64,000 nucleotides of DNA from a virus (lineage: Duplodnaviria; Caudoviricetes). The DNA is taken from positions 128,001-192,000 of the IMG/VR virus record IMGVR_UViG_3300034101_006325. One strand, given 5' to 3'. This document shows, piece by piece, positions 28,194 through 49,549 of this stretch. Each line of letters starts with the position of its first letter. Within the stretch, counting starts at the first letter, position 1. The position numbers were made by a program, and so were the translations under genes. The notes under the pieces are model-generated. The model saw nothing but the letters and a program-made list of their open reading frames with translations, ran no database searches and had not been told where the DNA came from.

Positions 28194-28207
28194 TTATATA
28201 AAAATTC

Positions 28208-28822
28208 ATGACAAATCAATGGCAAAATTATTTAAACAGTAATTGCAAAATTATTGCAACAATATCGACAAAAAATAATGCAAATTCAATTTATGAATGC
28301 ATAAAAAAAACACTGCCGCATTTTGAGGCAGTGTTTGTTATAGACAATGGATCTTCTGACGATACTCAAAAAGAAATTTACAAATTTATAAGAAGAGAAA
28401 GAAGTAAAAATTTATTTATTTTTGATTATTCTCATAATAAACATTGGCAAACACTACCAGAAAGTGAAATACTTGACTTGTCAAGAATGAAAGCAAATGA
28501 GTTTATTGCTACATCTATGATTAATGTACCTCACTTGTGGGCATCTTTAAGACCTAACATTATGCTTGGCCCAAATACAAGAGAATTAATTTTAGAAAAT
28601 TGTTTTAATTGGACAAAGCCCGAATTAAATCATAATTTTTATAGAACATCAAATGGCAATTGGTCAGTGTCAATTACTTTTAAACAAGGAAAGCTGATGG
28701 TGGGACCAGATTCTGCCAATCCGGCTGAACCTTGCTTTTATTTAAAAAATGAAGAAAATATATTGAAAACAAAATTTGATGAAAGTCAACATTCGTCTAT
28801 TATAATTGGAGAAGAAGTATGA
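28208..28822 (+). CDS. GT2-like protein (divergent)
   Basis: VFVIDNGSSDDT motif, but no clear DxD. Confidence 0.55.
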   Translation: MTNQWQNYLNSNCKIIATISTKNNANSIYECIKKTLPHFEAVFVIDNGSSDDTQKEIYKFIRRERSKNLFIFDYSHNKHWQTLPESEILDLSRMKANEFIATSMINVPHLWASLRPNIMLGPNTRELILENCFNWTKPELNHNFYRTSNGNWSVSITFKQGKLMVGPDSANPAEPCFYLKNEENILKTKFDESQHSSIIIGEEV

Positions 28823-29724: not shown

Positions 29725-30620
29725 GAAATTATTGCACTTTAGGAGATCACAGATACCTTCCACAGTTAATATGTCTGATCGATTCAATTATTGAAAATTT
29801 TAATCATGAATATAAAATTCATGTATTGTGTCTTGATGATAAAGTTTTTAATTGCTTAGATAAGAAATACAAAAATATAAATCTGTATCCAATCAATAAG
29901 ATTGAAGAAGATTTTAGCATTAAGGCTTTGAGATATCTTCCCGCAGGCCAAGAAGCAATTTCAAATGCTATGTCTTCCAATAAAGACCCGCAATTTGTTC
30001 AATTTTGCTGGGCTTTAGCTCCATGCTTTACCGATTGGGTTATGCAACGAATAAAACAGTCTTGCACGTATGTCGATGCAGATCTTTTTTTCTTCAATGA
30101 CACAAGTCAATTTTTTAATGAATTAGGAAAAAAATCAATAGGATTGGTTAGACATAGAATCGATTACATCTATACTAGTGGAGAATTTAATGTAGGAATT
30201 GTGCATTTTGAGCATGATGGTCCCGGCAGATCTGCACTAAAATTTTGGTGTGATGCAATGAAAAATCCTAGAAATCAATACTCTCTAGGCTATGGAACTT
30301 GCGGTGATCAAAAATATCTCGAAGCAATTAATTCCATTTATAGAGATGATGTTTCTATTGTTGATAAAAATTTTGGTCATCTCGCACCTTGGAATATAAC
30401 ATTTCATAAGTACGAAAATGATAAAATTATATGGAACAACACGCAGCAGGACTTGGTGTACTTCCATTTTGCTCACTTTGTAGTTGAAGAAAATGGTTAC
30501 AGAGGATCATATAAAAATGAATGGATATGGGGTGATCCTGTTAATCATGATTCTTATGTTAAAAAACTTTATGATCTTTATTATAAAAAAATGATTGAAT
30601 CCATCAAGGAGACTTTATGA
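29721..30620 (+). CDS. Glycosyltransferase, GT-A fold (nucleotide-diphospho-sugar transferase-like)
   Basis: YVDADLFFF (DxD), FNVG, GDQKYLE, LAPWN. Confidence 0.75.
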   Translation: MRNYCTLGDHRYLPQLICLIDSIIENFNHEYKIHVLCLDDKVFNCLDKKYKNINLYPINKIEEDFSIKALRYLPAGQEAISNAMSSNKDPQFVQFCWALAPCFTDWVMQRIKQSCTYVDADLFFFNDTSQFFNELGKKSIGLVRHRIDYIYTSGEFNVGIVHFEHDGPGRSALKFWCDAMKNPRNQYSLGYGTCGDQKYLEAINSIYRDDVSIVDKNFGHLAPWNITFHKYENDKIIWNNTQQDLVYFHFAHFVVEENGYRGSYKNEWIWGDPVNHDSYVKKLYDLYYKKMIESIKETL

Positions 30621-31498
30621 AAATTTCTGCAGCAATGATTGTTTTAAACGGTGACCATGTGTTGCAACAATCTTTAGCAAGTATTTATAATTTTGTTGAT
30701 GAGATTGTAATTGCAGAAGGTCCTGTTAAATTTTGGCAGTCTAAAGGGATCACAAAATCTACAGACAACACATTGGAAATAATAAAAAGCTTTCATGACC
30801 CTTCCAGAAAAATCAAATTAATTTCTTCTCAATATGAAGAAAAGAACGAGCAATTCACGGCAGCATTAAATTTATTGTCAAGTAATCCAAATTATCTTCT
30901 ACAAGTCGATGCAGATGAGGTATGGACCGAAGAATCTTTAAAAAATCTTAAAAATTTATTACAAGATAGGCAACCAGTATCTGTAGGCATCCATTCAAAT
31001 ACTTTTGTTGGAGGATTTGACAGAGTCATCTCAGGCTTTGAAGAAAATACAGATAATTTTTTAAGAGTTTTTAAATGGGAAGATGAATGCAAATTTATAA
31101 CACATCGACCGCCAACTATTAGATACAAAGATGGCAATCAAACAAGAGGTAAAAATCACATAGATTCAGACGAAGCAAGAGATTATTACAATATCTCAAT
31201 GTGTCATTATTCTTATGTGTGGCCTTCTCAAGTCAAATCAAAAATAGAATATTACAAAGCTAAAGTCTCTATGCAAAATTGCATACCTGATTTTTATGAA
31301 AATTACTGGCTCCCGTGGACTAAATCAACAACAATTGAAGAAAAATGGGAAATTGAAAAAAGAATAATGGGAATGCATGAATTTAGACCTGAAGTTAGAG
31401 GACCAGCATTTACTAAAGAATTTAAAGGTACGCATCCAATACAAATTACCAACAATAAATTAAATTTATTAAATAGAATTAAGAAAGAAATAGAATAA
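30617..31498 (+). CDS. Glycosyltransferase family 2
   Basis: MKISAAMIVLN, VDEIVIAEG, LQVDADE (DxD). Confidence 0.8.
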   Translation: MKISAAMIVLNGDHVLQQSLASIYNFVDEIVIAEGPVKFWQSKGITKSTDNTLEIIKSFHDPSRKIKLISSQYEEKNEQFTAALNLLSSNPNYLLQVDADEVWTEESLKNLKNLLQDRQPVSVGIHSNTFVGGFDRVISGFEENTDNFLRVFKWEDECKFITHRPPTIRYKDGNQTRGKNHIDSDEARDYYNISMCHYSYVWPSQVKSKIEYYKAKVSMQNCIPDFYENYWLPWTKSTTIEEKWEIEKRIMGMHEFRPEVRGPAFTKEFKGTHPIQITNNKLNLLNRIKKEIE

Positions 31499-32239
31499 AT
31501 GGTTGCTTCATCTTATGCTATAGGAACAAATCCGTGGAATAGAGATGATATGATAAGTCATCTTAAAGAATTTTTAAATATTTATAAAAACAAACCAATA
31601 GATGACAACAGTGGGGGACAAAAAGCTGCTCAACTTTTTTATTCATGGTATGTTGTAAAAAAAATTAAACCAAAAATTATTATTGAAAGCGGAGTATTTA
31701 AGGGACAAGGAACATGGGCATTTGAACAAGCTTCACCCGAATCTGAACTAATATGTTTAGATCCGTATTTGGAAAAATGGGGCGGTTATAGATCAAAAAA
31801 ACCGCAATATCTTCAAAAAGATTTTAAAGAAATTAATTGGGACCACATTGAAGATAAATCTAATGTTTTGTGTTTTTTTGATGATCATCAAAATGCATTT
31901 AATAGAATAGTTCAAATGAAACTTTTTGGTTTTAAAGTTGCAATGTTTGAAGATAACTACCCAGAAGGGCATGGAGACTGTTTATCTTTAAAGAAAATAT
32001 TTGAAAATTCAGAGGCCTATCAAATATTGCCAGAATTAACATGCAAAGATTATCTTGAAAAAGTTGTAAAATGCTATCATGAACTTCCGCCTATTTGTTC
32101 TCTAGCAAAAACAAGATGGAATACTGAATGGAACGATTATCGTTCTAACAAACCCTTGCTTGAAGAATTAAATGATGAATTAGTTATTTTTCAAGATGAA
32201 ATGGATCAGTATACTTGGATAAATTATGTTGAGTTATAA
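31499..32239 (+). CDS. Class I SAM-dependent methyltransferase-like protein
   Basis: IIESGVFKGQGT, ICLDP, FFDDHQ. Confidence 0.62.
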   Translation: MVASSYAIGTNPWNRDDMISHLKEFLNIYKNKPIDDNSGGQKAAQLFYSWYVVKKIKPKIIIESGVFKGQGTWAFEQASPESELICLDPYLEKWGGYRSKKPQYLQKDFKEINWDHIEDKSNVLCFFDDHQNAFNRIVQMKLFGFKVAMFEDNYPEGHGDCLSLKKIFENSEAYQILPELTCKDYLEKVVKCYHELPPICSLAKTRWNTEWNDYRSNKPLLEELNDELVIFQDEMDQYTWINYVEL

Positions 32240-32256
32240 TGTAAAGAGTTATTGCT

Positions 32257-32859
32257 ATGAGTTGGCAAGAGTCTGATAAAATTGTAGATCAAATGATCAG
32301 AGGATCCAATGGATCTCTGTGGGGATTTAAATTAGAACAATCAAGTCATTTTCCTATTCTAGAAAAATTATTAAAAATCTCAGGACAAAAAGATCTACTT
32401 GTTGACATTGGATGTGGAGCAGGAGATGTTTCACGTTCTTGGAATGGAGATTATCTTGGAGTTGATTTAGACTGGGTTATAAAAAGAGTATCAAGAATTT
32501 GCAATCCTAGTAAAACTTTTTTAAGTCTAGACATTACGTCTAAAGATACTTTTTATGATATTCCTAAATCTAATTGTTTGCTAATGAATGCATTTCTTGA
32601 CGTTCAAGAAAATCCTTTAGAAGTTCTTGAAAAATTTTGTAGACAAGTTGATACAAACTGGATAATTGTTCATAGGCAAAGAATAAGGAATATTGAAAAA
32701 ACAAAAATTGAATATGTTCCTGGCTACGGCGGTTCTTTAATACCTTCTTCTGTTATTTCTTTTAAAGAAATAAATGATATTAAACAAAAATATTCTAAAG
32801 AATTTTTAATTGGATTGTGGGAAAATGATTGGTATTCATTTGCAATGAGAATCAAATAA
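32257..32859 (+). CDS. Class I SAM-dependent methyltransferase
   Basis: LVDIGCGAG, YLGVD. Confidence 0.78.
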   Translation: MSWQESDKIVDQMIRGSNGSLWGFKLEQSSHFPILEKLLKISGQKDLLVDIGCGAGDVSRSWNGDYLGVDLDWVIKRVSRICNPSKTFLSLDITSKDTFYDIPKSNCLLMNAFLDVQENPLEVLEKFCRQVDTNWIIVHRQRIRNIEKTKIEYVPGYGGSLIPSSVISFKEINDIKQKYSKEFLIGLWENDWYSFAMRIK

Positions 32860-33920
32860 TGAAATTTGTAGATCTACAATTTGAAAATAAAAATGCAAAA
32901 CTATCATCAAAAAATAGTTTTAAACTTATTGAAAAAACTGGAAAGTATCTTCTTGGAGAATATTTAGAAAATTTTGAAAATCAATTTGCTAAGGATCAAG
33001 ATAAAAAATATTGCATAGGCGTAAAAAATGCGACGGATGCGCTTGCAATATCATTTAAAGCTCTTGGATCAGAAAATAGAACCGTTATTATTCCTCAATT
33101 TGGTGCATATCCTACTGTGATGGCAGCGATTCAAGCTAATTCAAAAAATATAATAGCTGCTCCCGTAGATGAAACTTTATGTCTTAATCTCGAGGATGTT
33201 AAAATACCAGATAATAGCATAATCGTTCCTGTCAATCTATTTGGAAATGAATCAAATTTAACTTACTTAAGAAAAAGAGCAGATGAAACAAATAGTCATA
33301 TTGTAGAAGACTGTGCTCAATCAACAGGAATTCCTAATAATAATCTAAGTGATGTCTCTATTCATAGTTTTTATCCTACTAAACCGCTTGGTTGTCAAGG
33401 AGATGGCGGGGCAATTCTCACGAATGATGAAAGAATTGCTAAATTCTGTAAACAAGCAAGATTTTATGGTCTTAATGATGGAATAATTGATTCCTGGGGT
33501 TTTAATAGTAGAATGGACGAGTGGCAATCCTGCTTTTTAACATCAAAACTATCATACTATAGAAATTTAAATGACACTAGAAAAGAAAATGCAAATTTAT
33601 ACAATCAAATTCTAAATAAGAGCATTAGATACACAGAAAATTGCGTTTATCATCAGTATGTAAGTCTTTGGAAGGATAGAAAGTATATTCAAAAAAAATT
33701 ATCAGAAAAAGGCATTCCTACGATGATTCATTACCCTAAAATGTTAATTGATATGCCATACCTTCGGGACAAAGTTAAATTTGTCAATGAGTGTCCAAGA
33801 GTTTCTGATTATATTCTGTCAATTCCAGTGGGGCCACATCTTACAAATCAAAATATTAAAAAAATAAAAAAAGAAATCAATAGCTTAAAGAGTAATTTAA
33901 TTGATTTTAAAGAAATTTAA
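32859..33920 (+). CDS. DegT/DnrJ/EryC1/StrS PLP-dependent sugar aminotransferase
   Basis: VEDCAQS, SFYPTKPLG (PLP Lys), GFNSRMDE. ATG at 32859 (TAATG overlap). Confidence 0.92.
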   Translation: MKFVDLQFENKNAKLSSKNSFKLIEKTGKYLLGEYLENFENQFAKDQDKKYCIGVKNATDALAISFKALGSENRTVIIPQFGAYPTVMAAIQANSKNIIAAPVDETLCLNLEDVKIPDNSIIVPVNLFGNESNLTYLRKRADETNSHIVEDCAQSTGIPNNNLSDVSIHSFYPTKPLGCQGDGGAILTNDERIAKFCKQARFYGLNDGIIDSWGFNSRMDEWQSCFLTSKLSYYRNLNDTRKENANLYNQILNKSIRYTENCVYHQYVSLWKDRKYIQKKLSEKGIPTMIHYPKMLIDMPYLRDKVKFVNECPRVSDYILSIPVGPHLTNQNIKKIKKEINSLKSNLIDFKEI

Positions 33921-33959
33921 AATTTCTTTTTGACACTACGCTAAAAAGACTATCATAAA

Positions 33960-34925
33960 ATGAAAAAAGCATTTATCACAGGAATTACAGGACAAGACGG
34001 ATCATACTTGACAGAATTACTCCTTCAAAAAGGATATTCTGTAATTGGAATAAAAAGAAGAACTTCTGTATTAAATACTTCCAATATAGATCATCTATAT
34101 GAAAATCCTAATCTTAAACTTTTTTATGGAAACATGAATGATGTTGGATCAATGTACCGATTGCTTTCAGAACATCAGCCCGATGAAGTTTACAATTTAG
34201 CAGCTCAATCACATGTAAGAACATCGTTCGATGTGCCAGAAGAAACAGTTGATGCAGTTGCAATGGGAACAATGAGATTATTAGAAGCTTGTAGGAATAT
34301 TGTTCCAAAAGTCAAGTTTTATCAAGCTTCTTCTTCTGAAATGTTTGGAGATAATACTGAAGAATTAAAAAATGAAGACACGAGAATGTCTCCCGCATCA
34401 CCTTACGCTGCCGCAAAACTTTTTTCACATAATTTAGTTAGAAATTACAGATTAGGTTATGGAATGCACGCATCGTCAGGAATTCTTTTTAATCATGAAT
34501 CACCACGGAGAGGTGAAACTTTTGTTACAAGAAAAATTACGAGAGCTGTTGCTAGAATAAAGCTTGGAAAACAAAATATTTTAAAACTTGGAAACATGGA
34601 TTCATATAGAGACTGGGGATTCGCTGGAGATTATGTCGAAGCTATGTGGCTTATGTTACAACAAGATACTCCTGATGATTATGTTATTGCTACGGGTGAA
34701 ACACGTACAGTCAGAGAATTTGTTGAAAAAACATTTGAATTGGCAGGTTTAGATTATAAAAAATATATTCAGATTGATCCTAGACTTTATCGACCCCACG
34801 AAGTACCTCATCTTCTAGGCGATGCTTCAAAAGCTAAAAAAATATTAGGATGGAAACCAAAACATACTTTTGATGATTTGATAAAATTAATGTATGAGTC
34901 AGATCTAAAAAATGAACTTATTTAA
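33960..34925 (+). CDS. gmd: GDP-mannose 4,6-dehydratase
   Basis: FITGITGQDGSYL, NLAAQSHV, QASSSE, YAAAK, FNHESPRRGETFVTRKI. Confidence 0.96.
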   Translation: MKKAFITGITGQDGSYLTELLLQKGYSVIGIKRRTSVLNTSNIDHLYENPNLKLFYGNMNDVGSMYRLLSEHQPDEVYNLAAQSHVRTSFDVPEETVDAVAMGTMRLLEACRNIVPKVKFYQASSSEMFGDNTEELKNEDTRMSPASPYAAAKLFSHNLVRNYRLGYGMHASSGILFNHESPRRGETFVTRKITRAVARIKLGKQNILKLGNMDSYRDWGFAGDYVEAMWLMLQQDTPDDYVIATGETRTVREFVEKTFELAGLDYKKYIQIDPRLYRPHEVPHLLGDASKAKKILGWKPKHTFDDLIKLMYESDLKNELI

Positions 34926-34950
34926 TGAATAAATTTAAATACAGTAAACT

Positions 34951-35322
34951 ATGTTAAATTTTGATGATTATACACGTGCAATCGACGATAGAGGGAAATT
35001 ATTTGCATTTAATAAATTGCAACAGTTTGATATAAAAAGAGTCTATTTAATAGAACCAGAAAAAAATATCTGGCGCGGAAAACACTTTCATAAAGAATGC
35101 ACACAAATAGTTCTAGTATTCAATGGAGAATTATTTTGCAAAGTCATTAATGAAAATACAAAAGAAGTGAATGAATTTGTGATGCCCGCAGGGACATCTT
35201 TTTGTCAGACTCCTGGTCTAGCTTTTTGTTTTAAAGCAAACTTAGAAGATACCAAAATCTTAGTTCTCTCTAATAGAGAATTTGATAAAAATGATTACTA
35301 TGAGGTATCACTAGGTGTCTAG
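34951..35322 (+). CDS. WxcM/FdtA-type cupin (sugar 3,4-ketoisomerase-like)
   Basis: DDRGKL, FDIKRVY, RGKHFHK, ILVLSN.EFD..DY. Confidence 0.8.
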   Translation: MLNFDDYTRAIDDRGKLFAFNKLQQFDIKRVYLIEPEKNIWRGKHFHKECTQIVLVFNGELFCKVINENTKEVNEFVMPAGTSFCQTPGLAFCFKANLEDTKILVLSNREFDKNDYYEVSLGV

Positions 35323-35953
35323 CATCATAACAAACTCTTGGAATTCTTTTTCAGAAGAATATTCTAAAAATTATTTGAATGATGCTGATTCAGTACTTCC
35401 CAAGACTCTTTCAAATTTTATATTTAAAGAATTTAATACACCTAATTTAATCGATATAGGTTGCGGGAACGCTAGATTCTACAATTATTTGCTAAATGAA
35501 AAAAGAGATTTTAGCTATGAAGGTTTTGATATATCAGCCCCACTCATAAATGCAGCTAAAATTAAATATGAAAAAAATAAAAATTTTTATTGCAAACTAG
35601 TTGATTCTAGTCTGTCTGATCTAAGACAAATAAATAAAAAATTTGATATAGCTGTATGCACACATCTTGTAGAACTTTGTGAATCGCCAGAAAATCTTTT
35701 TTATACAATGACAAATTTGTCAGATACAGTCGCTGTAATATGGTATGAGTATCCAAGATTTGAATATACGCAGTTAGAAATTAGAAACTACGTAAGTCAT
35801 GACATGCAAGAAAAAAAGATAATTACTCCTTATCTTAGAAATAGATATTCAAAATATTATTTGAAATTTTTAATGGATCGTTTCAGCCTTAAATCAATTC
35901 ATAAAATTTCCATATCTGAAAAAGATGTTTTAGAAATTTATAAAAAAATATGA
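35315..35953 (+). CDS. Class I SAM-dependent methyltransferase
   Basis: LIDIGCGNA, YEGFDIS. Confidence 0.8.
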   Translation: MSSIITNSWNSFSEEYSKNYLNDADSVLPKTLSNFIFKEFNTPNLIDIGCGNARFYNYLLNEKRDFSYEGFDISAPLINAAKIKYEKNKNFYCKLVDSSLSDLRQINKKFDIAVCTHLVELCESPENLFYTMTNLSDTVAVIWYEYPRFEYTQLEIRNYVSHDMQEKKIITPYLRNRYSKYYLKFLMDRFSLKSIHKISISEKDVLEIYKKI

Positions 35954-36528
35954 GAAAAGAAACGTTACAGATTATAAAAAATCTGAATAAAAATTTTAAA
36001 GGTGAATATGTTTATGATATGGGTGGCGGCTACAATCCCGTAACTTCTGACATTGTTGGAAATAAAAAAATAAAAGTAGTCGACTATTTTTCAGGGCCAA
36101 AAGTAGACATTATTGACGATCTAACAAAATTAAATTCGATAGAATCGAACTCTGTTGATAATATTTTTTGCTCTGATGCACTAGAACATGTAATTGAACC
36201 CTGGAATGCAATCAAACAATTTCATAGAGTTTTAAAAAATGATGGCATATTGTTTGTTACTGTTCCTTTTATTTGGCATTTTCATGGTCATGAAATTCAA
36301 AAAGAAAATTGGAAAAGTAGGGTTGATTTTTGGCGATTTACACCACAAGCACTAGAGTCTTTGTGTTTTAAGTATTTTGAAAAAATTGATTGCAATTGGG
36401 ACTTGGAACCGCCTCTTGGTCCCCAAGAATTACCAATATGGCGTTGCGGCGTATATTACATGGGCAAAAAACTTTCAAGTATAAGAAAAGAAGATTATAC
36501 ACTAGAAATAACTAGAGACAATTGGTAA
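35950..36528 (+). CDS. Class I SAM-dependent methyltransferase (type 11-like)
   Basis: VYDMGGG, SDALEHV, RVLKNDGILFVTVP, DFWRFT. Confidence 0.8.
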   Translation: MRKETLQIIKNLNKNFKGEYVYDMGGGYNPVTSDIVGNKKIKVVDYFSGPKVDIIDDLTKLNSIESNSVDNIFCSDALEHVIEPWNAIKQFHRVLKNDGILFVTVPFIWHFHGHEIQKENWKSRVDFWRFTPQALESLCFKYFEKIDCNWDLEPPLGPQELPIWRCGVYYMGKKLSSIRKEDYTLEITRDNW

Positions 36529-36530
36529 AC

Positions 36531-37598
36531 ATGGCTTGTATTATTAAAATACCTGACGAAAACTCAAAAGGTGTCGTTACATTCACCACACAAGAAAGAG
36601 ACAAATTAATTTTTAATGATAAAGCAATTTTTGAAAAAATTGTTACTTTAAAAAAAGATTATATAGTTGGTCTTCATCACAATTGGCATGATTACAACTT
36701 TAGATATCATCCTTTGTTTGATTTTAGTATGGCTGGGGAGGGAGATCTTGGCAATTCGGAAGTTCCTCTTATAACTTTAGATGCATGCAATTTCATTCCA
36801 GAAGAATTTCATTCATCGACAGGAGAAAAATTTTGGGATGTAGTCTATGTTACACGTGCTGTCTATTTTAAAAGAGTCGATCTTTTCTTCAAGGCTATAA
36901 AGAAAATTTATGACACAGGTAAAAAAATAAAAGTATTACTTGTTTGTTGCATCCCTCCAGAAGATGCAACTCCTAAAAATGTTATTGAAGACTATCTTTC
37001 AACTTTTAACGAAGAAGAAAGAAAATATTTTACTTTTCTACCATTAACACATGATTATCCTTTTTGTCTAGATCCGGCATCAATAGGATTTTTTTATAGA
37101 TCCTCAAAGATATTTGCCCACTTTGCTAATGATGAAAGAAGATGCAGAGTAGTAGCAAATGCCGCTGCAACATGCATGCCAATAGTTTGTATGTCTGACC
37201 CTGCTTCAATTATTCCAGAACATTTAAAAAAGCCACCATACTGTTATATTGTTAAAAGTGATGATGATTTTTCAAATAAAATTATTCAATCACTTAATGA
37301 ATATGATGAAAATAAAAATTTATTTGAATTATCAAAACATTTTAGTGTAAAACATACAAAACAAGAACTTAAACAACAATTAGAAAAATTTTTAAAAATT
37401 TCAAAAGATAAAATGTTAGATTCTTCTTTTAATTTTTTTAATCTTGACATTAGACTTGGAAGACATCACAGCATCAGCTACGGACCAAATAAAGTCAATA
37501 TGTCTTTAGATGAATTTTCTAAAATATTGCTTGATAAACAAAATTTAAGTTTAATATGGGATTCTTCTTGTAAAGATTTTGAAAAGAAAATTTCATGA
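36531..37598 (+). CDS. Glycosyltransferase, GT-B fold
   Basis: YVTRAVYFKR, SSKIFAHFANDERRCRVVANAAATCMPIV. ATG at 36531. Confidence 0.65.
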   Translation: MACIIKIPDENSKGVVTFTTQERDKLIFNDKAIFEKIVTLKKDYIVGLHHNWHDYNFRYHPLFDFSMAGEGDLGNSEVPLITLDACNFIPEEFHSSTGEKFWDVVYVTRAVYFKRVDLFFKAIKKIYDTGKKIKVLLVCCIPPEDATPKNVIEDYLSTFNEEERKYFTFLPLTHDYPFCLDPASIGFFYRSSKIFAHFANDERRCRVVANAAATCMPIVCMSDPASIIPEHLKKPPYCYIVKSDDDFSNKIIQSLNEYDENKNLFELSKHFSVKHTKQELKQQLEKFLKISKDKMLDSSFNFFNLDIRLGRHHSISYGPNKVNMSLDEFSKILLDKQNLSLIWDSSCKDFEKKIS

Positions 37599-37666
37599 AT
37601 CAAAATCATTTTGATCCAAATTAAAATGGGACAATTGTTTGTTAATTCCTATAAGTAAGAAATTAT

Positions 37667-38362
37667 ATGCATAATATTCATTTAAATTCAATTAATGAAA
37701 AAGGTTATGCATTAATTCCTAATTTTTTAGGAAGCAATGAAGTCAAAAATTTAAAAAATAGCTTATTCAAAATATACAGCAACTATAGATTAGGTGATCA
37801 GATAGAAATACCCGGAATGTCTACGCCTAAGCAATATAGTACTGGAAAATCCATGAGAATTTATCCTCCTGCATATTGTAATTTTTCTGAAATTGAAAAT
37901 TTTAAGAAAGATTGGCTCACACAACTTACTGATGCTTTTTTTGAAGGAGCAAATAATAAAGGACTTCAAGTATTTTCTTCATATGAAACATTGTCTTACA
38001 GAGAAGTCAACGAATTACCTAGAAATTCTCACATGCACGTAGATCCATATCATTCTCTTAAATTTTTTAGTTATTTGACTGATACAACCAAAGAGAATGG
38101 CGCACTTCAATTAATTCCGGGTACAAGCTGGATTGGCAAAAAAATAAGAAAAGAAAACAGCATTAATGAACTATTGACCAGCGATTTATATACCTTTAAA
38201 AAAAGCAATTATTATAATTCTGATCTTGAAAAAGAAACTACTTTTATCGAAGGTAAAGCTGGCGATCTAATAATTCTAGATACAGATACTGTGCATTGTG
38301 GGGGTATTCTTGTAAAGCCAGGGCTAGAAAGACTTACAATAATCTATCACAATAGGAAATAG
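37667..38362 (+). CDS. PhyH-type 2OG-Fe(II) dioxygenase
   Basis: HVD, NGALQLIPGT, GKAGDLII...VHCGG...R (HxD...H...R). Confidence 0.82.
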   Translation: MHNIHLNSINEKGYALIPNFLGSNEVKNLKNSLFKIYSNYRLGDQIEIPGMSTPKQYSTGKSMRIYPPAYCNFSEIENFKKDWLTQLTDAFFEGANNKGLQVFSSYETLSYREVNELPRNSHMHVDPYHSLKFFSYLTDTTKENGALQLIPGTSWIGKKIRKENSINELLTSDLYTFKKSNYYNSDLEKETTFIEGKAGDLIILDTDTVHCGGILVKPGLERLTIIYHNRK

Positions 38363-38363
38363 T

Positions 38364-38963
38364 ATGAAAACTTGTGCCATTGTAGGAAATTCTTCTTGTT
38401 TATTGGATAAAAGTTATGGAAGTTTTATCGATAGTCATGATGAAGTTATAAGATTTAACATGGCACGAACAAGAGGATTTAAAAAATATGTTGGAACAAA
38501 AACGACAATAAGATTTTGTAATCAACACATTGTTATGTCCAATTTTTCAGACGATTATTTAAAAGAACAGCTTAAAGTCTTTCCAGAATGGGACAATAAA
38601 GAAATTCTAACGTGGGAAAAACAAAAATTATTTTTTAAATATAGCAAAGAGCTTAAAGGAACAGAGCTTGAATCTCAGTTGTTTTCTAAAAACAATGAGA
38701 TTTACTACATAAGTGATTTAGAAATAATAAAATTAAAAAGAAAATTAAATGTAGAACCTACAATGGGGTTAGTGGGATTAGATTATGCTTTGACATTTTT
38801 TAGTACAATAAATTGCTTTGGTTTTGATTTTTATAAAAATCAAAACAGATCTTTTCATTATTTTGAAAAAACAATACCTTATAAATCTTGCCATGATCAT
38901 AAAGAAGAAAAGAAATTCTTCAAAGATGCTGAAGAATCAGGAAAGATAAAAATTTATAGATGA
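38364..38963 (+). CDS. GT29 sialyltransferase-like protein
   Basis: Sialylmotif L CAIVGNS...G..IDSHDEVIRFN...VGTKTT; S-like PTMGLVGLDYAL..FSTINCFGFDF; VS-like HDHKEE. Confidence 0.85.
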   Translation: MKTCAIVGNSSCLLDKSYGSFIDSHDEVIRFNMARTRGFKKYVGTKTTIRFCNQHIVMSNFSDDYLKEQLKVFPEWDNKEILTWEKQKLFFKYSKELKGTELESQLFSKNNEIYYISDLEIIKLKRKLNVEPTMGLVGLDYALTFFSTINCFGFDFYKNQNRSFHYFEKTIPYKSCHDHKEEKKFFKDAEESGKIKIYR

Positions 38964-39586
38964 AAATATTGATTCCTGCACGAATGGGATCCAAAGGATT
39001 CCCTAAAAAAAATAGAATTTTATTTGATTATACTGCTAGAATTATTCCTAAAGATTTCATTAAAAATACAGTAGTTTCGACAGATGACCCTGAAATTGTC
39101 AAAATGGCTGAATCTTATAATTTCTTAGTTCATCATCGATCAGAAGAATTATCAAGAGATGAAACTTCTACAAAAGAAGTAGTTGAATCTTTTTTAAAAC
39201 AAGAAATTATTGATGATAATTCAAAGTTAACAGCGCTTTTATATTTGACTTATCCGCAAAGAAAATGGGATGATGTTGTCAGAGCAAAAGAATTGATTGA
39301 TAGCTCTAAATCAAAATCTTTGCTATGTGCATTTGACATCGAGGCACATCCATTTTTAATGGCATTTGAAATGCCAGGTCATAGAGGAAAACAATTATAT
39401 AAACACAATTTATATAGAAGACAGGATTATCCTAAATGTTTTGAAATATCACATTTTGTATGTATGTTTTATGACGATGAAGTAAAAAATTTAAATAATA
39501 ATCTCTATAATGAAGACACATATTTTATGAAATGTAATAAAAAGGTAGATGTTGATCTACTAGAACATTTTTTAAAAATACAATGA
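38960..39586 (+). CDS. neuA: CMP-nonulosonate (CMP-Neu5Ac/KDN) synthetase
   Basis: LIPARMGSKGFPKKN, VVSTDD, LYLTYPQR, RRQD, DVD. Confidence 0.88.
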   Translation: MKILIPARMGSKGFPKKNRILFDYTARIIPKDFIKNTVVSTDDPEIVKMAESYNFLVHHRSEELSRDETSTKEVVESFLKQEIIDDNSKLTALLYLTYPQRKWDDVVRAKELIDSSKSKSLLCAFDIEAHPFLMAFEMPGHRGKQLYKHNLYRRQDYPKCFEISHFVCMFYDDEVKNLNNNLYNEDTYFMKCNKKVDVDLLEHFLKIQ

Positions 39587-40401
39587 AAAAAATTAAAATT
39601 ATTGCAGAAATTGGAATAAATCACAACGGCAGTGTTGAGTTGGCAAAAAAGATCATTGCAGTGTCTGCAGCAGCAGGCTGTGATTATGTTAAATTTCAAA
39701 AAAGAAACCCAGATGTATGTGTACCAGAAGATCAAAAATTAAAAGTTAGGTCTACTCCGTGGGGAGAAATGACGTACATTGACTATAAGAAAAAAATTGA
39801 ATTTGAAAAAGAACAATATGATGAAATTGACAAATTTTGCAAACAATTAGGCATTAAATGGTTTGCGTCTGCGTGGGATTTATCTTCTCTTGATTTTTTA
39901 AAAAGATATTCAGATGTTGTAAAGATTCCATCAGCACTTATTACAAATGAAGAACTTTTATTGAATGCAAGAAAAAAATTTGATTTTCTTTTAATATCAA
40001 CTGGCATGAGTACTGAGTCTGAGGTAGAAAATGCAGTTAAAATTTCAAATCCCGATGTAATTTTTCATACTAACTCAAGTTATCCTAGCAAAGTTGAAGA
40101 TTTAAATTTAAACTACATAAAACATCTAAAAAATAAGTTTAATAGAACGGTGGGTTATAGTGGACATGAATTTGGACTTGTTACAACATTTGCAACTGTA
40201 CCTTTGGGTGTCGAATGGATAGAAAGACATGTCACTTTAGATAGAGAAATGTGGGGATCTGATCAAAAATCATCTGTAGAACCATCGGGTATTTACAAGC
40301 TTGTCAAAGGAATACGGGATATAGAAAAATCATTAGGAAGTATTGGGCCAAGAGTAATTTGTAAAGAAGAATTAGAAAAGAAAAAATCACTTAGAGGTTG
40401 A
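39583..40401 (+). CDS. neuB: Nonulosonate synthase (NeuB family), no C-terminal SAF domain
   Basis: IAEIGINHNG, VKFQKR, KIPS, STGM, GYSGHE, IERHVTLD..MWGSDQ; 272 aa. Confidence 0.93.
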   Translation: MKKIKIIAEIGINHNGSVELAKKIIAVSAAAGCDYVKFQKRNPDVCVPEDQKLKVRSTPWGEMTYIDYKKKIEFEKEQYDEIDKFCKQLGIKWFASAWDLSSLDFLKRYSDVVKIPSALITNEELLLNARKKFDFLLISTGMSTESEVENAVKISNPDVIFHTNSSYPSKVEDLNLNYIKHLKNKFNRTVGYSGHEFGLVTTFATVPLGVEWIERHVTLDREMWGSDQKSSVEPSGIYKLVKGIRDIEKSLGSIGPRVICKEELEKKKSLRG

Positions 40402-40709
40402 ATGTGTTAATTTACGTAGATATTGATGAAACAATCTGCAATACGCCTGACGATAGAAACTATTTAAAGTCTACACCCATAAAAAAAAATATAAAAATTA
40501 TAAATTCTCTTCATGAAAAAGGCCATCAAATTGTTTATTGGACTGCAAGAGGAACAGTCACAGGAATTGATTGGTCAAATGAAACTATTAGACAGTTAGA
40601 CGAATGGGGTGTCAAAAGAACAAAAGTTCTTTTTGGAAAGCCAGCATATGATTTATTCATATGCGACAAAGCGATTAATTCAAATGTTTTTTTTAATTTA
40701 ACTCAATAA
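40398..40709 (+). CDS. Small HAD phosphatase (EcbF/BcbF capsule-biosynthesis-like)
   Basis: YVDIDETI (DxD), WTARG, GKP, DLFICDKA. Start may be GTG 40404. Confidence 0.8.
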   Translation: MNVLIYVDIDETICNTPDDRNYLKSTPIKKNIKIINSLHEKGHQIVYWTARGTVTGIDWSNETIRQLDEWGVKRTKVLFGKPAYDLFICDKAINSNVFFNLTQ

Positions 40710-40722
40710 GGCATATTAATTT

Positions 40723-41229
40723 ATGATCAAACTTTTACCGATGATGCAATTGGAAGAGCTAAATCTTCTCGAAAAATATCTTGATAAAGAAAAAGTGATT
40801 TGCGAATACGGCTCAGGCGGTTCTACAAATTGGCTTTCAGAAAGAACCAAATTTGTATATTCAATAGAACACAACAAAGAGTGGTATGATAAAACAAAAA
40901 GTAGTTTGTCAAATAGAGAAAATGTAGAAATTTTTTATGTCCCAAGTTTTAATTGGGACCCAAGCACCGAAGGAAATATTGATAGTTTTGAAAACTACAT
41001 TAATATGCCAGGAACTTTAAATATAGATTTTTCTTTCTTTTTAGTGGATGGCAGAGCTAGAGTTGACTGTTGCAGGTTTATATCAAAAAAATTTCCAACA
41101 GCTATTATTGCTTTTCATGACTATACCAATAGAGCAAATGATGTTGAGCACAATTATTCAAGAGTCTTAGAACATTTAACTTTAATTGAAACCTGTAAAA
41201 CTCTTGCAATTTTTAAAAAGAAAGTCTAA
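40723..41229 (+). CDS. SAM-dependent methyltransferase-like protein
   Basis: CEYGSGGST, SIEHNKEW, LVDGRAR, AFHDY. Confidence 0.7.
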   Translation: MIKLLPMMQLEELNLLEKYLDKEKVICEYGSGGSTNWLSERTKFVYSIEHNKEWYDKTKSSLSNRENVEIFYVPSFNWDPSTEGNIDSFENYINMPGTLNIDFSFFLVDGRARVDCCRFISKKFPTAIIAFHDYTNRANDVEHNYSRVLEHLTLIETCKTLAIFKKKV

Positions 41230-41286
41230 ATAAAATAAAAATTATTCTAATGAACTAAGAGACACAACCATCTTATATTTGAGTCA

Positions 41287-42102
41287 ATGGAATCAAATCT
41301 GTCATTAGAAACTTTACCTACAGGAAAACCTCATGTTTCATTTTCTGAGGTAAAGTTATGGAAAGAATGTTCTTTTAGACATCATCTTGTTCATGTCAAA
41401 AAAATTGATTTATCTAAGCCCTCGCCCGTTTTAGATTTTGGCACAGCTGTTCATGCTTCTTGTGAAAAATATCTTTTGACAAGAGAGATGGACTACCAAG
41501 TAGCTTTTAAACATTTGGACGATGCCTGGAAAAAACATGAAGGAATTGTAGAATTCAATGCTTTGTCATTGGAAAAAGCAAAGCAAGAAGCTACACAAAT
41601 TCTTTTAGAAGTGCCTGCTTTTCTCGACAAAGAATTTCCAGGATGGGAAGTCGTTGATGCTGAACATCAGCTTTATGAAGCAGTTGAAGGCCATCCTCAC
41701 GCTTTCAAAGGATTCATCGACGGAGTTATAAAAGCCAAAGGGAAAAGAGGTGAGACAATCTATTGGATTCTGGATTGGAAGACAACGATTAGAGGCTGGC
41801 TTAGAGAAAAAAGATCTGATGAAATGGTTAAGTCACAATTGGCACTCTATAAAAACTACTGGTGTCAAAAAAATCCTGAAATTCAATTTAAAGATGTCAG
41901 ATGCGGTTTCGTCCTTTTAAAAAAATCTGCAAAACCAGGAGAACATTGTGAACTTTTTTCTGTTTCACTTGGAGAAGTTCCTATTAAAAGGTCTTTAAAG
42001 GTCGTTAGCAATATGCTTACTTCTGTAAAGAGAGGTATTGCTTTGAAAAATAGAGACTCTTGTACTTATTGTGAATACAAAAATACCAATCATTGCACAT
42101 AA
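41287..42102 (+). CDS. PD-(D/E)XK nuclease, AddB/Cas4-like with Fe-S-type Cys
   Basis: VSFSEV...CS, FGTAVH, GFIDG, LDWKT, QLALY, C-terminal CTYCEYK..NHC. Confidence 0.85.
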   Translation: MESNLSLETLPTGKPHVSFSEVKLWKECSFRHHLVHVKKIDLSKPSPVLDFGTAVHASCEKYLLTREMDYQVAFKHLDDAWKKHEGIVEFNALSLEKAKQEATQILLEVPAFLDKEFPGWEVVDAEHQLYEAVEGHPHAFKGFIDGVIKAKGKRGETIYWILDWKTTIRGWLREKRSDEMVKSQLALYKNYWCQKNPEIQFKDVRCGFVLLKKSAKPGEHCELFSVSLGEVPIKRSLKVVSNMLTSVKRGIALKNRDSCTYCEYKNTNHCT

Positions 42103-42162
42103 TTTATTTTTGATAGCATTAATTTTTATTACAACTTTTAAAAAGTTGGTAATATAACGTGG

Positions 42163-43410
42163 ATGAAGAAAAAAACGATTTTAATGCTATCAGATCATCC
42201 TTTGTCTACTTCAGGCGTAGGCACACAGGCAAGATGGTTAATAACAGGTTTAATCAACACTGGTAAATATAGTTTTAGATGTTTTGGTGGTGCTGTTAGA
42301 CACGATAACTACGATCTTAACGTAGTAAGTCCTGATTTTGTCATTAAACCGACAAATGGTTTTGGTGATAGAAATCTTTTAAGAAAAACTCTAGCACAAT
42401 TAAAACCCGACGCTCTTCTTCTCTTTACGGATCCAAGATTTTTTATTTGGACTTGGGAAATGGAGGATGAGATTCACCAAGTCTGTCCTATTGCTTATTG
42501 GCACTTATGGGATAATGGACCTTGGCCGGAATTTAATAGGGCACTATACGCGTCCAATGATTTGATCAATTGCATTAATTATCCGACCTATGAGATGGTC
42601 AAAGAACGTTTTCCAGATAGGACAAATTATATTCCACATGCTGTCCCAAAGGATCTTTACTATCCTTTACCTGACGAAGAGGTAAAAAACTTTAAAAGAA
42701 ATCTTTTAGGCAAAGATAAAGAAGATCATTTTGTTGTGGGATATGTTAGTAGAAATGCCCGTCGAAAAATGCCAAGTGACATTATTGTTTCTTGGAAAAT
42801 GTTTATTGATGAGCTAAAGAAAAAGCATGGGCACACAAAAGCCAGTCTTGTCATGCATACAGAGCCTTTAGATCCGGAAGGACCTAACTTACATCATGTA
42901 TTAGATTCATTGGACGCGAAAGATCATGTTGTTTTTTCTAATAAACGTGTAAATTTTCAAGAAATGAATGTGATATACAACATATTCGATACAATCGTTA
43001 ATAGAAGCTCTAATGAAGGTTTTGGACTTCCTACACTAGAAACAATGATGTGTGGCAAACCAATTATTGCAATAAAGACAGGCGGTTTAACGAGACAAGT
43101 CGAAGATCCTGATACGGGTTTTCAACACGGCATAGCGTTGGAACCTGAAATAAAGTCTTTGGTGGGAAACCAAATGGTTCCTTACATTTATGAAGATTTC
43201 ATAAGCCACAAAACTTTGGCAGATGCATTTATGAAAATGTACGAAATGGGTCCTGAAAAAAGAAAAGAACTTGGACAAAAAGCAATGCAGCATGCGCACA
43301 AAAATTACAATATTGACAATATGATAAAAGATTGGGATTCTTCTTTGACCAAATTAATTGACAATTGGCAAGAAGGCAAAAACAAGAGATGGACGCACGA
43401 GGAGATTTGA
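42163..43410 (+). CDS. Glycosyltransferase family 4
   Basis: SGVGTQ, YVSRNARRK, NEGFGLPTLETMMCGKP. Confidence 0.88.
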   Translation: MKKKTILMLSDHPLSTSGVGTQARWLITGLINTGKYSFRCFGGAVRHDNYDLNVVSPDFVIKPTNGFGDRNLLRKTLAQLKPDALLLFTDPRFFIWTWEMEDEIHQVCPIAYWHLWDNGPWPEFNRALYASNDLINCINYPTYEMVKERFPDRTNYIPHAVPKDLYYPLPDEEVKNFKRNLLGKDKEDHFVVGYVSRNARRKMPSDIIVSWKMFIDELKKKHGHTKASLVMHTEPLDPEGPNLHHVLDSLDAKDHVVFSNKRVNFQEMNVIYNIFDTIVNRSSNEGFGLPTLETMMCGKPIIAIKTGGLTRQVEDPDTGFQHGIALEPEIKSLVGNQMVPYIYEDFISHKTLADAFMKMYEMGPEKRKELGQKAMQHAHKNYNIDNMIKDWDSSLTKLIDNWQEGKNKRWTHEEI

Positions 43411-43411
43411 A

Positions 43412-44584
43412 ATGAAAAAAGCAATTCTTAGAGGACCTTCTCTCACACAATCCGGTTATGGCGTTCATTGTAGACAAGTTGCATCTTGGCTCTTGTCAAA
43501 AAAAGATTGGGATGTCAAATTCCAAGCTCTGCCATGGGGAGATACCCCGTGGTTATTAAATGAAAAATCAAATGATGGTTTGATTGATAGAATTATGAAG
43601 AATACTGTGGACCTATCTGACAGTAATTCTAATTATGACATCTCCTTTCAATTACAGCTTCCTAATGAATGGGATCACAAACTTGCAAAATACAATGTTG
43701 GAATGACTGCAGGAATTGAAACTGATATTTGCAATCCTGTGTGGATAGACTGCTGTAATAAAATGGATTTAGTCATAGTTCCTTCAAAGCACGCAGAAAA
43801 TTCATTAAAAAATTCAGGAAAAATTAACACACCAATTCAAATAGTACCAGAATCGTTTTGCAATGAAATTTTAGACGAAACAAGCACAGATCTTTTGAAA
43901 AATTTCCCTACATTTAGCACAAATACTAATTTTCTGGTATTTGGACAGATTACAGGGGACAATCCCATGAATGATAGAAAGAATATTTTCTTCACTATTA
44001 AATGGTTTTGTGAAGTCTTCAAAGATGATCCTGATGTAGGTCTTGTAATAAAGACAAATATCGGTAGAAATACTCAGATTGATAAAAAGAAAACGTTAGA
44101 ATTGATGTCAATCATTGTAAAAGAATGCAGAAAAAGTCAATTTCCTAAAATTCATATTATTCATGGTGACATGACAGACAAAGAAGTTGCTGCGTTATAC
44201 AAGCATCCTCAGATTAATGGATTTATTTCCCTAACAAGAGGAGAGGGATATGGCCTACCCCTGTTGGAAGCAGCAGCTAGCGGGCTACCAGTTATTGCCA
44301 CAGGTTGGTCGGGACATATGGACTTTTTATCCCGAGGAAAGTTTATTGAAATAGACCACGATGTGAAAAAAATACATGCATCAAGAGCAGACAATAAACT
44401 ATTCATGCCTGAAGCAAAATGGGCTGAAGCAAATGAAGATGACTTCAAGAAAAAAATCGTAAAATTTAAAAATTCTCAAGCAAAACCCAAAGAATGGGCA
44501 AAAGAATTAGAATTAATCATTAAAGAAAATTATAGTCAGGAATCAATTTTTAAATACTATGACAAAGTAGTTGAAAATATATGA
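43412..44584 (+). CDS. Glycosyltransferase family 4-like
   Basis: TQSGYG, DRKNI, TRGEGYGLPLLEAAASGLPVI. ATG at 43412 with GAGGAG SD. Confidence 0.88.
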   Translation: MKKAILRGPSLTQSGYGVHCRQVASWLLSKKDWDVKFQALPWGDTPWLLNEKSNDGLIDRIMKNTVDLSDSNSNYDISFQLQLPNEWDHKLAKYNVGMTAGIETDICNPVWIDCCNKMDLVIVPSKHAENSLKNSGKINTPIQIVPESFCNEILDETSTDLLKNFPTFSTNTNFLVFGQITGDNPMNDRKNIFFTIKWFCEVFKDDPDVGLVIKTNIGRNTQIDKKKTLELMSIIVKECRKSQFPKIHIIHGDMTDKEVAALYKHPQINGFISLTRGEGYGLPLLEAAASGLPVIATGWSGHMDFLSRGKFIEIDHDVKKIHASRADNKLFMPEAKWAEANEDDFKKKIVKFKNSQAKPKEWAKELELIIKENYSQESIFKYYDKVVENI

Positions 44585-49036: not shown

Positions 49037-49063
49037 TAAATTACATCAAAACTTTAATTAGAA

Positions 49064-49540: not shown

Positions 49541-49549
49541 AGTAAAGCC

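What the first reader, a model, noticed from the sequence alone, without database searches (positions are those of the whole stretch)
38364..40709. Self-contained phage sialylation module with a eukaryote-type GT29 sialyltransferase
Seen: four overlapping genes, GT29-neuA-neuB-HAD. The GT29 has sialylmotifs L, S-like and VS-like but is only 199 aa, has no N-terminal membrane anchor, and has Phe where motif S normally has the Cys that bonds to motif L. Established: GT29 is the animal Golgi sialyltransferase family; typical bacterial sialyltransferases are GT38/42/52/80, and GT29 is only sporadic in prokaryotes. Inference: a phage that synthesises, activates and transfers its own sialic-acid-like sugar using a minimal, soluble, disulfide-free GT29, giving an anionic virion coat (shielding, anti-adsorption or mimicry). 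Also of biotechnological interest.
Basis: partly seen in the sequence, partly recalled or inferred. Interest (0 to 1): 0.85.

Follow-up and report, generated by a model that had tools for sequence, protein, structure and literature searches.

The report
Phage sialic-acid-type sugar transfer module
A large lake-water tailed phage carries a compact gene set to make, activate and attach a sialic-acid-type sugar, using a stripped-down soluble relative of animal sialyltransferases; many uncultured phages share the set, and I found no paper describing it.

Summary
ORF 38364-38963 is a true GT29 (Pfam PF00777, 95.9 bits). Its model has pLDDT 96.6, and its 30 best PDB matches are all animal sialyltransferases. 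Sialylmotifs L, III (HYFE) and VS (H-x4-E) are intact, and motif S has Phe146 in place of the Cys. There is no membrane anchor.

It is followed by:
- a NeuA-type CMP-sugar synthetase;
- a 272-aa NeuB without the SAF domain;
- a ~101-aa HAD phosphatase.

A PhyH-type Fe/2OG dioxygenase lies directly upstream.

The record is a T4-like phage from lake water, 200 kb and about 61% complete. Near-identical DNA occurs in several independent studies, including a viral-fraction metagenome.

The same gene set recurs with shuffled order in every related phage contig inspected, and in the 484-kb phage LR756508.1. The short NeuB always comes with the HAD. Relatives replace this pair with a NeuB fused to a mannose/lyxose isomerase, or with NeuC plus NeuB-SAF. 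This points to a 9-phosphate route, most likely to Kdn.

"Eukaryote-type" is not supported. The lack of an anchor and of the disulfide is already described for bacterial GT29 (Petit 2018), and I found GT29 in 111 bacterial species.

The virion-coat idea is untested. This scan has flagged the same module in at least 12 other genomes.

The parts
37667..38362 (+). PhyH-type Fe(II)/2-oxoglutarate dioxygenase, a conserved partner of the GT29
   Evidence: Pfam PF05721, 38.9 bits. The H124-x-D126...H210 triad and R222 are invariant in 7 homologues. The model has pLDDT 89 and matches small-molecule dioxygenases such as AsqJ, PrhA, AviO1 and SnoN. It lies directly upstream of the GT29 in the window, L002-5, L006, L007 and L122, and in the same island in L017, L018 and L138.
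38364..38963 (+). Minimal soluble GT29 sialyltransferase-like glycosyltransferase, 199 aa
   Evidence: PF00777, 95.9 bits. phmmer to ST6Gal-I and ST3Gal-I gives E about 1e-10. AlphaFold pLDDT is 96.6. The top 30 Foldseek PDB matches are animal GT29, followed by GT42 CstII. Motifs III and VS are invariant in the clade.
38960..39586 (+). CMP-nonulosonate synthetase (NeuA-type cytidylyltransferase), 208 aa
   Evidence: PF02348, 42.5 bits. The PseF HMM gives 53 bits, below its cut-off. The best solved relatives are CMP-Neu5Ac synthetases (6ifd at E 9e-14, then 1eyr and 1qwj), with no KdsB among them.
39583..40401 (+). NeuB-family nonulosonate synthase without the SAF/antifreeze-like domain, 272 aa; inferred 9-phosphate synthase
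   Evidence: PF03102, 220.7 bits. NeuB_NnaB scores 215 bits and PseI 162 bits, both below their cut-offs. PDB matches are 8h2c, and 6ncs which is also a short NeuB. Orthologues at 65-66% identity lie in L002 and L007.
40398..40709 (+). Small HAD phosphatase of the EcbF/BcbF type; probable true start GTG 40404
   Evidence: The DxDxT, T49, K81 and D90 motifs can be read in the sequence. TIGR01689 gives 23.8 bits, which is weak. PDB 9iqw 'capsule biosynthesis protein' matches at E 5e-9. It is present wherever the short NeuB is present: L002-5, L007, L017 and LR756508.
40723..41229 (+). 168-aa protein with a SAM-binding-like GSGG motif; a possible methyltransferase whose membership in the module is uncertain
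   Evidence: There is no Pfam hit, only weak Erm-type NCBIfam hits at about 17 bits.
25079..44584 (+). The surrounding glycan-building island, entirely soluble. It holds GT2/GT4 transferases, methyltransferases, RmlB/Gmd dehydratases, FdtA and DegT, and is interrupted by a PD-(D/E)XK nuclease
   Evidence: Pfam scans. No 19-residue window reaches KD 1.3 or more in any of the 24 ORFs. Baseplate hub and wedge genes follow at 47483-51406.

Best explanation
This is a phage-encoded, cytoplasmic 'make, activate, transfer' module for a sialic-acid-type nonulosonic acid.

Proposed steps:
1. The short NeuB condenses PEP with a phosphorylated hexose taken from host metabolism, most likely mannose-6-phosphate, giving Kdn-9-phosphate.
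2. The small HAD removes the phosphate.
3. The NeuA-type enzyme makes the CMP-sugar.
4. The soluble 199-aa GT29 transfers the sugar, with inversion, using His177 of motif VS as the base. The acceptor is a glycan built by the neighbouring soluble glycosyltransferases.
5. The adjacent PhyH dioxygenase tailors either the sugar or the acceptor.

Because nothing in the island is membrane-bound and it lies beside the tail genes, the most likely final target is a phage structural protein.

Shown: gene identities, intact catalytic motifs, the fold, and conserved linkage.
Inferred: the identity of the sugar, the role of the dioxygenase, and the target.

Linkage:
- GT29, NeuB and a CMP-synthetase sit within a few kb, in different gene orders, in every phage context inspected: L002-5, L006, L007, L017, L018, L138, L139, a 73-kb Logan contig, and LR756508.1.

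9-phosphate route:
- The window-type short NeuB is accompanied by the HAD in 5 of 5 independent lineages. Neither of the 2 alternative cassettes has it.

Sialic-acid class:
- In L006 the alternative NeuB is fused to a D-lyxose/D-mannose isomerase domain (PDB 7nzo, E 3.9e-10).
- In L018, which is syntenic with L017, the cassette is NeuC plus NeuB-SAF.
- Both are routes to Kdn or Neu5Ac.

Supply and precedent:
- No NeuC is found in the held 200 kb. A Gmd gene (441 bits) implies that host mannose metabolism is used.
- The phosphorylate/dephosphorylate Kdn route is documented for B. thetaiotaomicron and Prymnesium (PMC6200933).

Location and reality of the phage:
- All 24 island proteins are soluble.
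- The genome is a real, recurrent phage. It has a Gp23-type capsid gene. Contigs at 99-100% identity occur in four other studies, including a viral-fraction metagenome.
Against: - No enzyme activity, sugar or glycoprotein has been observed.
- NeuB and NeuA score below every NCBIfam equivalog cut-off, so their specificity is open.
- The HAD is not of the KdsC/YrbI type that holds the known Kdn-9-P phosphatase. Its nearest solved relative is an uncharacterised 'capsule biosynthesis protein'.
- The L017/L018 swap could equally mean Neu5Ac made from ManNAc-6-P.
- The record is only about 61% complete, so absent genes are weak evidence.
- Nothing links the glycan to a virion protein.
Confidence: 0.6

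Rival explanations
1. The module is the same, but the sugar is Neu5Ac made from ManNAc-6-phosphate (the animal-type route), or another nonulosonate such as a legionaminic or pseudaminic-like acid, rather than Kdn.
For: L018, which is syntenic with L017, uses NeuC plus NeuB-SAF. This is the classical Neu5Ac or Leg route, and it sits at the same place as the short NeuB plus HAD. The best NCBIfam and PDB hits of NeuB and NeuA are Neu5Ac and Pse enzymes. The island also holds a DegT aminotransferase and 4,6-dehydratases.
Against: No NeuC, NanE-type epimerase or N-acetyltransferase was recognised in the island or the held record. ManNAc-6-P is not a general metabolite, whereas Man-6-P is. DegT and the dehydratase sit with FdtA, which is the signature of a dTDP-3-amino-3,6-dideoxyhexose route instead. 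The Leg and Pse routes need no phosphatase.
Confidence: 0.3
2. The glycan is put on a host structure (LPS, capsule or S-layer precursor) to change the infected cell's surface, for example to block superinfection, and not on the virion.
For: Bacterial GT29 genes sit beside CMP-sugar synthetases in 19 of 111 genomic loci. Petit et al. propose that they act on cell-envelope glycans.
Against: No flippase, polymerase, ligase, initiating phosphoglycosyltransferase or any membrane protein is found among the 24 island ORFs. The phage has a T4-like, presumably lytic, architecture.
Confidence: 0.2
3. The GT29 uses a different CMP-ulosonic acid, such as CMP-Kdo, as proposed for plant GT29 enzymes that act on rhamnogalacturonan II. 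In this case it would be only coincidentally linked to NeuB.
For: Plant GT29 members are proposed to be CMP-Kdo transferases (PMC11288761, listed). No donor has been tested for any prokaryotic or viral GT29.
Against: GT29, NeuB and a NeuA-type synthetase co-occur in all inspected phage loci. No KdsA or KdsB-type relative appears among the hits.
Confidence: 0.07
4. The island hypermodifies phage DNA with a glycan that ends in an acidic sugar.
For: Phage glycosyltransferases are known to decorate hydroxymethylated bases. This is discussed in PMC12619734, which cites Pyle et al. 2024.
Against: No thymidylate-synthase-type hydroxymethylase is found in the held 200 kb. Nine transferases and several methyltransferases far exceed known DNA glycans. 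The record is incomplete, so this absence is weak evidence.
Confidence: 0.03

Closest known systems
Bacterial GT29-like sialyltransferases (Petit et al. 2018, Sci Rep 8:2946, PMC5811610)
   Same: It carries the four sialylmotifs. It has no transmembrane anchor and no conserved L/S cysteine pair. Its activity is likewise uncharacterised.
   Different: That paper does not mention phages or viruses (0 occurrences). In my FastTree, 35 of 55 bacterial rows form their own clade (support 99), away from the window's group. The PhyH partner appears only with the phage-type genes.
Animal Golgi GT29 enzymes: pig ST3Gal-I (2WNB), human ST6GalNAc-II (6APL), ST8Sia-III (5BO8), ST6Gal-I (4JS1)
   Same: It has the GT-A variant fold (TM 0.65-0.71 on the query), motif L at about 50% identity locally, the motif III HY(F/W)E, and the motif VS His...Glu.
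   Different: It is 199 aa against about 270-290 aa for the animal catalytic domain. It has no stem or anchor, no disulfide (Phe146), and is cytoplasmic.
Kdn pathway of Bacteroides thetaiotaomicron and Prymnesium parvum: Kdn-9-P synthase, Kdn-9-P phosphatase, CMP-Kdn synthetase (PMC6200933)
   Same: The logic is the same three steps: synthase, phosphatase, cytidylyltransferase, with no epimerase needed.
   Different: The phage HAD is of the small EcbF/BcbF type, not the KdsC/YrbI type. The substrate of the phage NeuB is untested. The phage set also adds the transferase.
Virus-encoded glycan machineries: mycobacteriophage virion glycosylation (Freeman et al. 2023, cited in PMC12619734) and chlorovirus/mimivirus sugar pathways (from general knowledge)
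   Same: Soluble virus-encoded transferases and nucleotide-sugar enzymes sit next to structural genes.
   Different: None of these is reported to use a GT29 or a sialic-acid-type donor. The target here is unknown.

Membership tests
CAZy GT29 / Pfam Glyco_transf_29 | Profile match above the curated threshold | tested here: met
   95.9 bits against a cut-off of 23. A six-frame search of the genome gives 94.1 bits.
CAZy GT29 / Pfam Glyco_transf_29 | Sialylmotifs L, S, III and VS with the catalytic His | tested here: met
   Motifs L, III (H165-Y-F-E168) and VS (H177-x4-E182) are present and conserved in 80 sequences. Motif S is present but has Phe146 in place of Cys.
CAZy GT29 / Pfam Glyco_transf_29 | GT-A variant 2 fold shared with solved sialyltransferases | tested here: met
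   The model has pLDDT 96.6. Foldseek PDB ranks 1-30 are all GT29, with E down to 9e-11.
Eukaryotic (Golgi) GT29 subtype | Type II membrane anchor and stem, and the L-S disulfide | tested here: not met
   The protein starts at motif L. Max KD19 is 1.28, and Phe146 replaces the motif S Cys.
CAZy GT29 / Pfam Glyco_transf_29 | Transfer from a CMP-activated sialic or ulosonic acid | not testable with these tools
   The only evidence is genetic linkage to NeuB and NeuA.
NeuB family (nonulosonate synthases) | NeuB TIM-barrel domain with conserved metal-binding histidines | tested here: met
   PF03102, 220.7 bits. The GHE and ERH motifs align to those of 8h2c and 6ncs.
NeuB family (nonulosonate synthases) | C-terminal SAF/antifreeze-like domain of the classical NeuB, PseI and LegI enzymes | tested here: not met
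   The protein is 272 aa and ends after the barrel. NCBIfam equivalog scores are below their cut-offs. 6ncs sets a precedent for a short NeuB.
CMP-sialic acid synthetase (NeuA) branch of CTP_transf_3 | Profile match, with nearest solved relatives being NeuA rather than KdsB | tested here: met
   PF02348, 42.5 bits. The solved relatives are 6ifd, 1eyr, 9ftb and 1qwj, all CMP-Neu5Ac synthetases.
HAD phosphatase superfamily | Motifs I-IV (DxDxT, S/T, K, acidic) and a family profile match | tested here: inconclusive
   The motifs can be read in the sequence, and 9iqw matches at E 5e-9. All Pfam and NCBIfam scores are below their cut-offs.
Kdn-9-P / Kdo-8-P phosphatase (KdsC/YrbI) subfamily | Match to the KdsC/YrbI-type profile | tested here: not met
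   No such family appears among the hits. The best hit is TIGR01689 EcbF-BcbF.

The most novel reading that the evidence does not exclude
A large, virus-specific branch of GT29 works as a fixed pair with a 2-oxoglutarate dioxygenase and lets tailed phages of lakes and seas decorate their own particles with Kdn or sialic acid made from host mannose-6-phosphate. That would make sialylation a common virion trait of uncultured aquatic phages, and it would make viruses a reservoir in the early history of the sialyltransferase family.
Probability: 0.3. Interest if true: 0.8.

Novelty: new variant of a known kind. Interest (0 to 1): 0.62.

Why it matters
Sialic acids and GT29 enzymes are usually treated as animal biology, with bacterial mimicry carried out by other enzyme families. 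Here a minimal, soluble GT29 without a disulfide, together with its own donor pathway, is a recurrent feature of uncultured aquatic phages.

- Over a hundred 50%-identity clusters surround the window's protein.
- The co-travelling short NeuB has thousands of metagenomic relatives.

If the sugar ends up on virions, it would be a new kind of phage surface chemistry, with consequences for adsorption, grazing, aggregation and immune recognition.

The enzyme is also an attractive candidate for E. coli expression as a sialyltransferase scaffold. In addition, the viral clade bears on the debated bacterial origin of eukaryotic GT29.

Tried and rejected
- The search for related loci with the close-clade alignment A1 found no relative in viral contigs or genome contigs. 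Alignments A2 and A3 were too diverse for that tool. The degenerate motif-L DNA pattern worked instead.
- Sigma-70 promoter and terminator scans of the island gave no more than chance: 111 against 99.7, and 10 against 7.3.
- The T4 late-promoter word TATAAATA is not enriched and is absent upstream of the module. Expression timing is therefore unknown.
- No RNA holder is listed among the public runs.
- One apparent 'joint' in run X2 has only 21 letters on one side, so I ignored it.
- No paper was found for PDB 9IQW.
- The PhyH fold search returned only generic small-molecule dioxygenases and does not fix a substrate.
- No eukaryotic GT29 sequences could be obtained. The tree is therefore unrooted with respect to eukaryotes, and its metagenome rows are biased toward the query.
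- The 'moraphage' paper (PMC12619734) was read as a possible description of this lineage. It mentions neither sialic acid nor NeuB, and I did not test membership.
Full report
**Observation.** The four ORFs exist as described on the + strand:
- GT29 at 38364-38963 (199 aa);
- a cytidylyltransferase at 38960-39586 (208 aa);
- NeuB at 39583-40401 (272 aa);
- a small HAD at 40398-40709.

The first three junctions are a 1-nt gap and two ATGA overlaps. The HAD probably starts at the in-frame GTG at 40404, which follows an AGAGG. That start gives an N-terminus matching its homologues. A PhyH-type dioxygenase (37667-38362) ends one base before the GT29 start.

**The genome.** The window is bases 128001-192000 of a 200,303-bp IMG/VR virus record estimated to be 61% complete.
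- It has baseplate hub and wedge genes just downstream of the island.
- It has a T4-type Gp23 capsid gene (214.9 bits). The nearest relatives of that gene are the 484-kb uncultured phage LR756508.1 (48%) and Flavobacterium phage vB_FspM_immuto (45%). A Bacteroidota host is therefore a reasonable but unproven guess.
- Public runs that hold the stretch are lake, river and other freshwater metagenomes.
- Contigs with 0-5 differences per kb lie on it in four other studies, one of them labelled a viral metagenome.

This is a real and recurrent freshwater phage.

**The transferase.**
- Pfam Glyco_transf_29 matches at 95.9 bits against a cut-off of 23.
- phmmer finds human ST6Gal-I and pig ST3Gal-I at E about 1e-10, with motif L about half identical.
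- An AlphaFold model built from 80 homologues has pLDDT 96.6.
- Its 30 best PDB matches are all animal GT29 structures (TM 0.65-0.71 on the query), followed by the GT42 enzymes CstII and Cst-I.
- H165-Y-F-E168 (motif III) and H177...E182 (motif VS) are invariant or nearly so across 24-80 sequences.
- In the alignment to ST3Gal-I, Phe146 takes the place of the motif S cysteine. The motif L cysteine (C4) is not conserved in the clade.
- The protein begins at motif L and has no hydrophobic segment.

**'Eukaryote-type' is not the right label.** Petit et al. (PMC5811610) reported bacterial GT29 in 2018 and noted that these proteins lack the transmembrane domain and the L/S cysteines. I went further with a degenerate motif-L DNA pattern, which hit 119 loci in one-genome-per-species GTDB contigs.
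- 111 of these loci encode a GT29 profile match.
- They include cultured Idiomarina, Halomonas, Pseudovibrio, Rhizobium, Paracoccus, Sphingomonas and Helicobacter ganmani, and many MAGs of Gastranaerophilales, Pontimonas and others.

In a FastTree of 216 domain sequences:
- 35 of 55 bacterial rows form one clade (support 99) with no phage or metagenome row in it.
- The window lies in a 119-row group made of phage-context and metagenome rows, plus one MAG contig (L122) that carries the phage-type PhyH-GT29 pair.

Two caveats apply. The metagenome rows are the best 150 hits of a profile built from the window's clade, and no eukaryotic sequence could be added.

**The donor genes.**
- NeuB matches PF03102 at 220.7 bits but ends after the barrel, with no SAF domain. 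It scores below both the NeuB/LegI and the PseI equivalog cut-offs. A short NeuB has been solved (6ncs).
- The nearest solved relatives of the cytidylyltransferase are CMP-Neu5Ac synthetases, not KdsB.
- The HAD has the four HAD motifs and matches a 134-aa 'capsule biosynthesis protein' (9iqw, E 5e-9). It is not of the KdsC/YrbI type.
- No NeuC-type epimerase is found in the held 200 kb.

**Comparative evidence.** This is the strongest part of the case. Every related context I opened carries GT29, NeuB and a CTP_transf_3 gene within a few kb, in varying order, among phage genes such as RecA/UvsX, DnaB, primase, tubulin, MazG, dCMP deaminase, endolysin and clamp loader. The contexts are:
- L002-5 (GT29 50% identical);
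- L006 (a 188-kb contig);
- L007, L017 and L018;
- L138 and L139, which were reached from NeuB;
- a 73-kb Logan contig;
- LR756508.1, which has about five GT29 genes around one NeuB.

The cassettes differ in an informative way:
- The window-type NeuB (330-402 bits) comes with the small HAD in all five independent lineages that have it.
- In L006 a different NeuB (28% identical) is fused to a D-lyxose/D-mannose isomerase domain (7nzo, E 3.9e-10), and no HAD is present.
- In L018, which is syntenic with L017, the cassette is NeuC plus NeuB-SAF, again without the HAD.

This gives three interchangeable supply cassettes feeding the same kind of GT29: phospho-sugar plus phosphatase, mannose isomerase fusion, and NeuC epimerase. 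That is what one expects for sialic acids proper, meaning Kdn or Neu5Ac.

For the window, the 9-phosphate route is well supported. Man-6-P (giving Kdn) is the more economical substrate, for three reasons:
- It needs no further enzyme.
- The phage already draws on host mannose metabolism through its Gmd gene (441 bits).
- The synthase-phosphatase-cytidylyltransferase Kdn route is documented (PMC6200933).

I put Kdn at about 45-50%, Neu5Ac at about 25%, and another nonulosonate at the remainder.

**The dioxygenase.** PhyH lies directly upstream of the GT29 in the window, L002-5, L006, L007 and L122. It lies in the same island in L017, L018, L138 and the Logan contig. It was found next to none of the other 110 bacterial GT29 loci. 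Its iron triad and 2OG arginine are invariant. Its model resembles small-molecule dioxygenases, including two that act on sugar moieties (AviO1 and SnoN). A tailoring role on the sugar or on the acceptor is my inference; its substrate is unknown.

**Target.** None of the 24 proteins from 25079 to 44584 has a membrane segment. No export or lipid-carrier enzyme was recognised, so the glycan is assembled in the cytoplasm. With baseplate genes immediately downstream, a structural protein is the most likely acceptor (about 40-45%). This is an inference only. Host envelope precursors (about 20%), DNA (about 3%; no hydroxymethylase found) and other targets remain open.

**Novelty.**
- Full-text searches combining GT29 or sialyltransferase with phage terms returned nothing that describes such a gene.
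- Among 50,697 deposited phage records, only the unannotated LR756508.1 has a GT29 match.
- Only LR756508.1 and one unannotated marine single-cell viral contig carry the short NeuB.
- In metagenomes the family is large. The profile search gave 45 representatives below 1e-30, most of them 190-260 aa, and the short NeuB has thousands of relatives.
- Earlier notes of this same scan describe the module in at least 12 other phage genomes. Those are unchecked AI notes that agree with, but do not add evidence to, what I tested here.

I class it as a new variant of known kinds: bacterial-type GT29, viral glycan islands and the Kdn-type pathway. Its function and target are still to be shown at the bench.

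Noticed in passing
L006:1553-3028: In a 188-kb phage contig that also encodes tubulin, RecA and DnaB, the NeuB is a 491-aa fusion with a D-lyxose/D-mannose isomerase-type cupin (7nzo, E 3.9e-10). This looks like a one-protein fructose-to-mannose-to-Kdn route.
   Followed up: partly
L018:517-2693 versus L017:2634-3759: Two syntenic phage contigs differ only in the supply cassette. L018 has NeuB-SAF plus NeuC (plus a formyltransferase and a deacetylase). L017 has the small HAD plus the short NeuB.
   Followed up: partly
LR756508.1 309194-326809 (L008-L016): This deposited but unannotated 484-kb uncultured phage has about five GT29 genes, four of them in tandem around one short NeuB and a HAD. 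One copy has an in-frame TAG.
   Followed up: partly
L019-L137 (genome contigs): GT29-profile proteins occur in 111 GTDB species across many phyla, with lengths ranging from about 200 aa to over 800 aa. Nineteen of the loci have a CMP-synthetase nearby, and only 4 have a NeuB within 8 kb.
   Followed up: partly
window 41287-42102: A PD-(D/E)XK nuclease gene sits inside the glycan island. It is conserved at the same place in L002-L004 and near the island in L006 and L139.
   Followed up: no
G000:C1:114635-116527 (L140:1471-3363, - strand): The Gp23-type major capsid gene is 630 aa, and the Pfam Gp23 match is split in two pieces. Whether the extra segment is a decoration or a glycosylation site is unknown.
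   Followed up: no
window 44581-44883: This 100-aa protein has the only predicted membrane segment in the region (KD19 2.75 at the N-terminus). It lies between the last glycosyltransferase and a sigma-like gene.
   Followed up: no
73-kb Logan contig of SRR8302209 (no DNA served): A GT29 and CMP-synthetase lie next to a 626-aa NeuB-SAF-AP_endonuc_2 fusion, a TylF methyltransferase and two exostosin (GT47) genes. This could be a phage or a giant virus.
   Followed up: no
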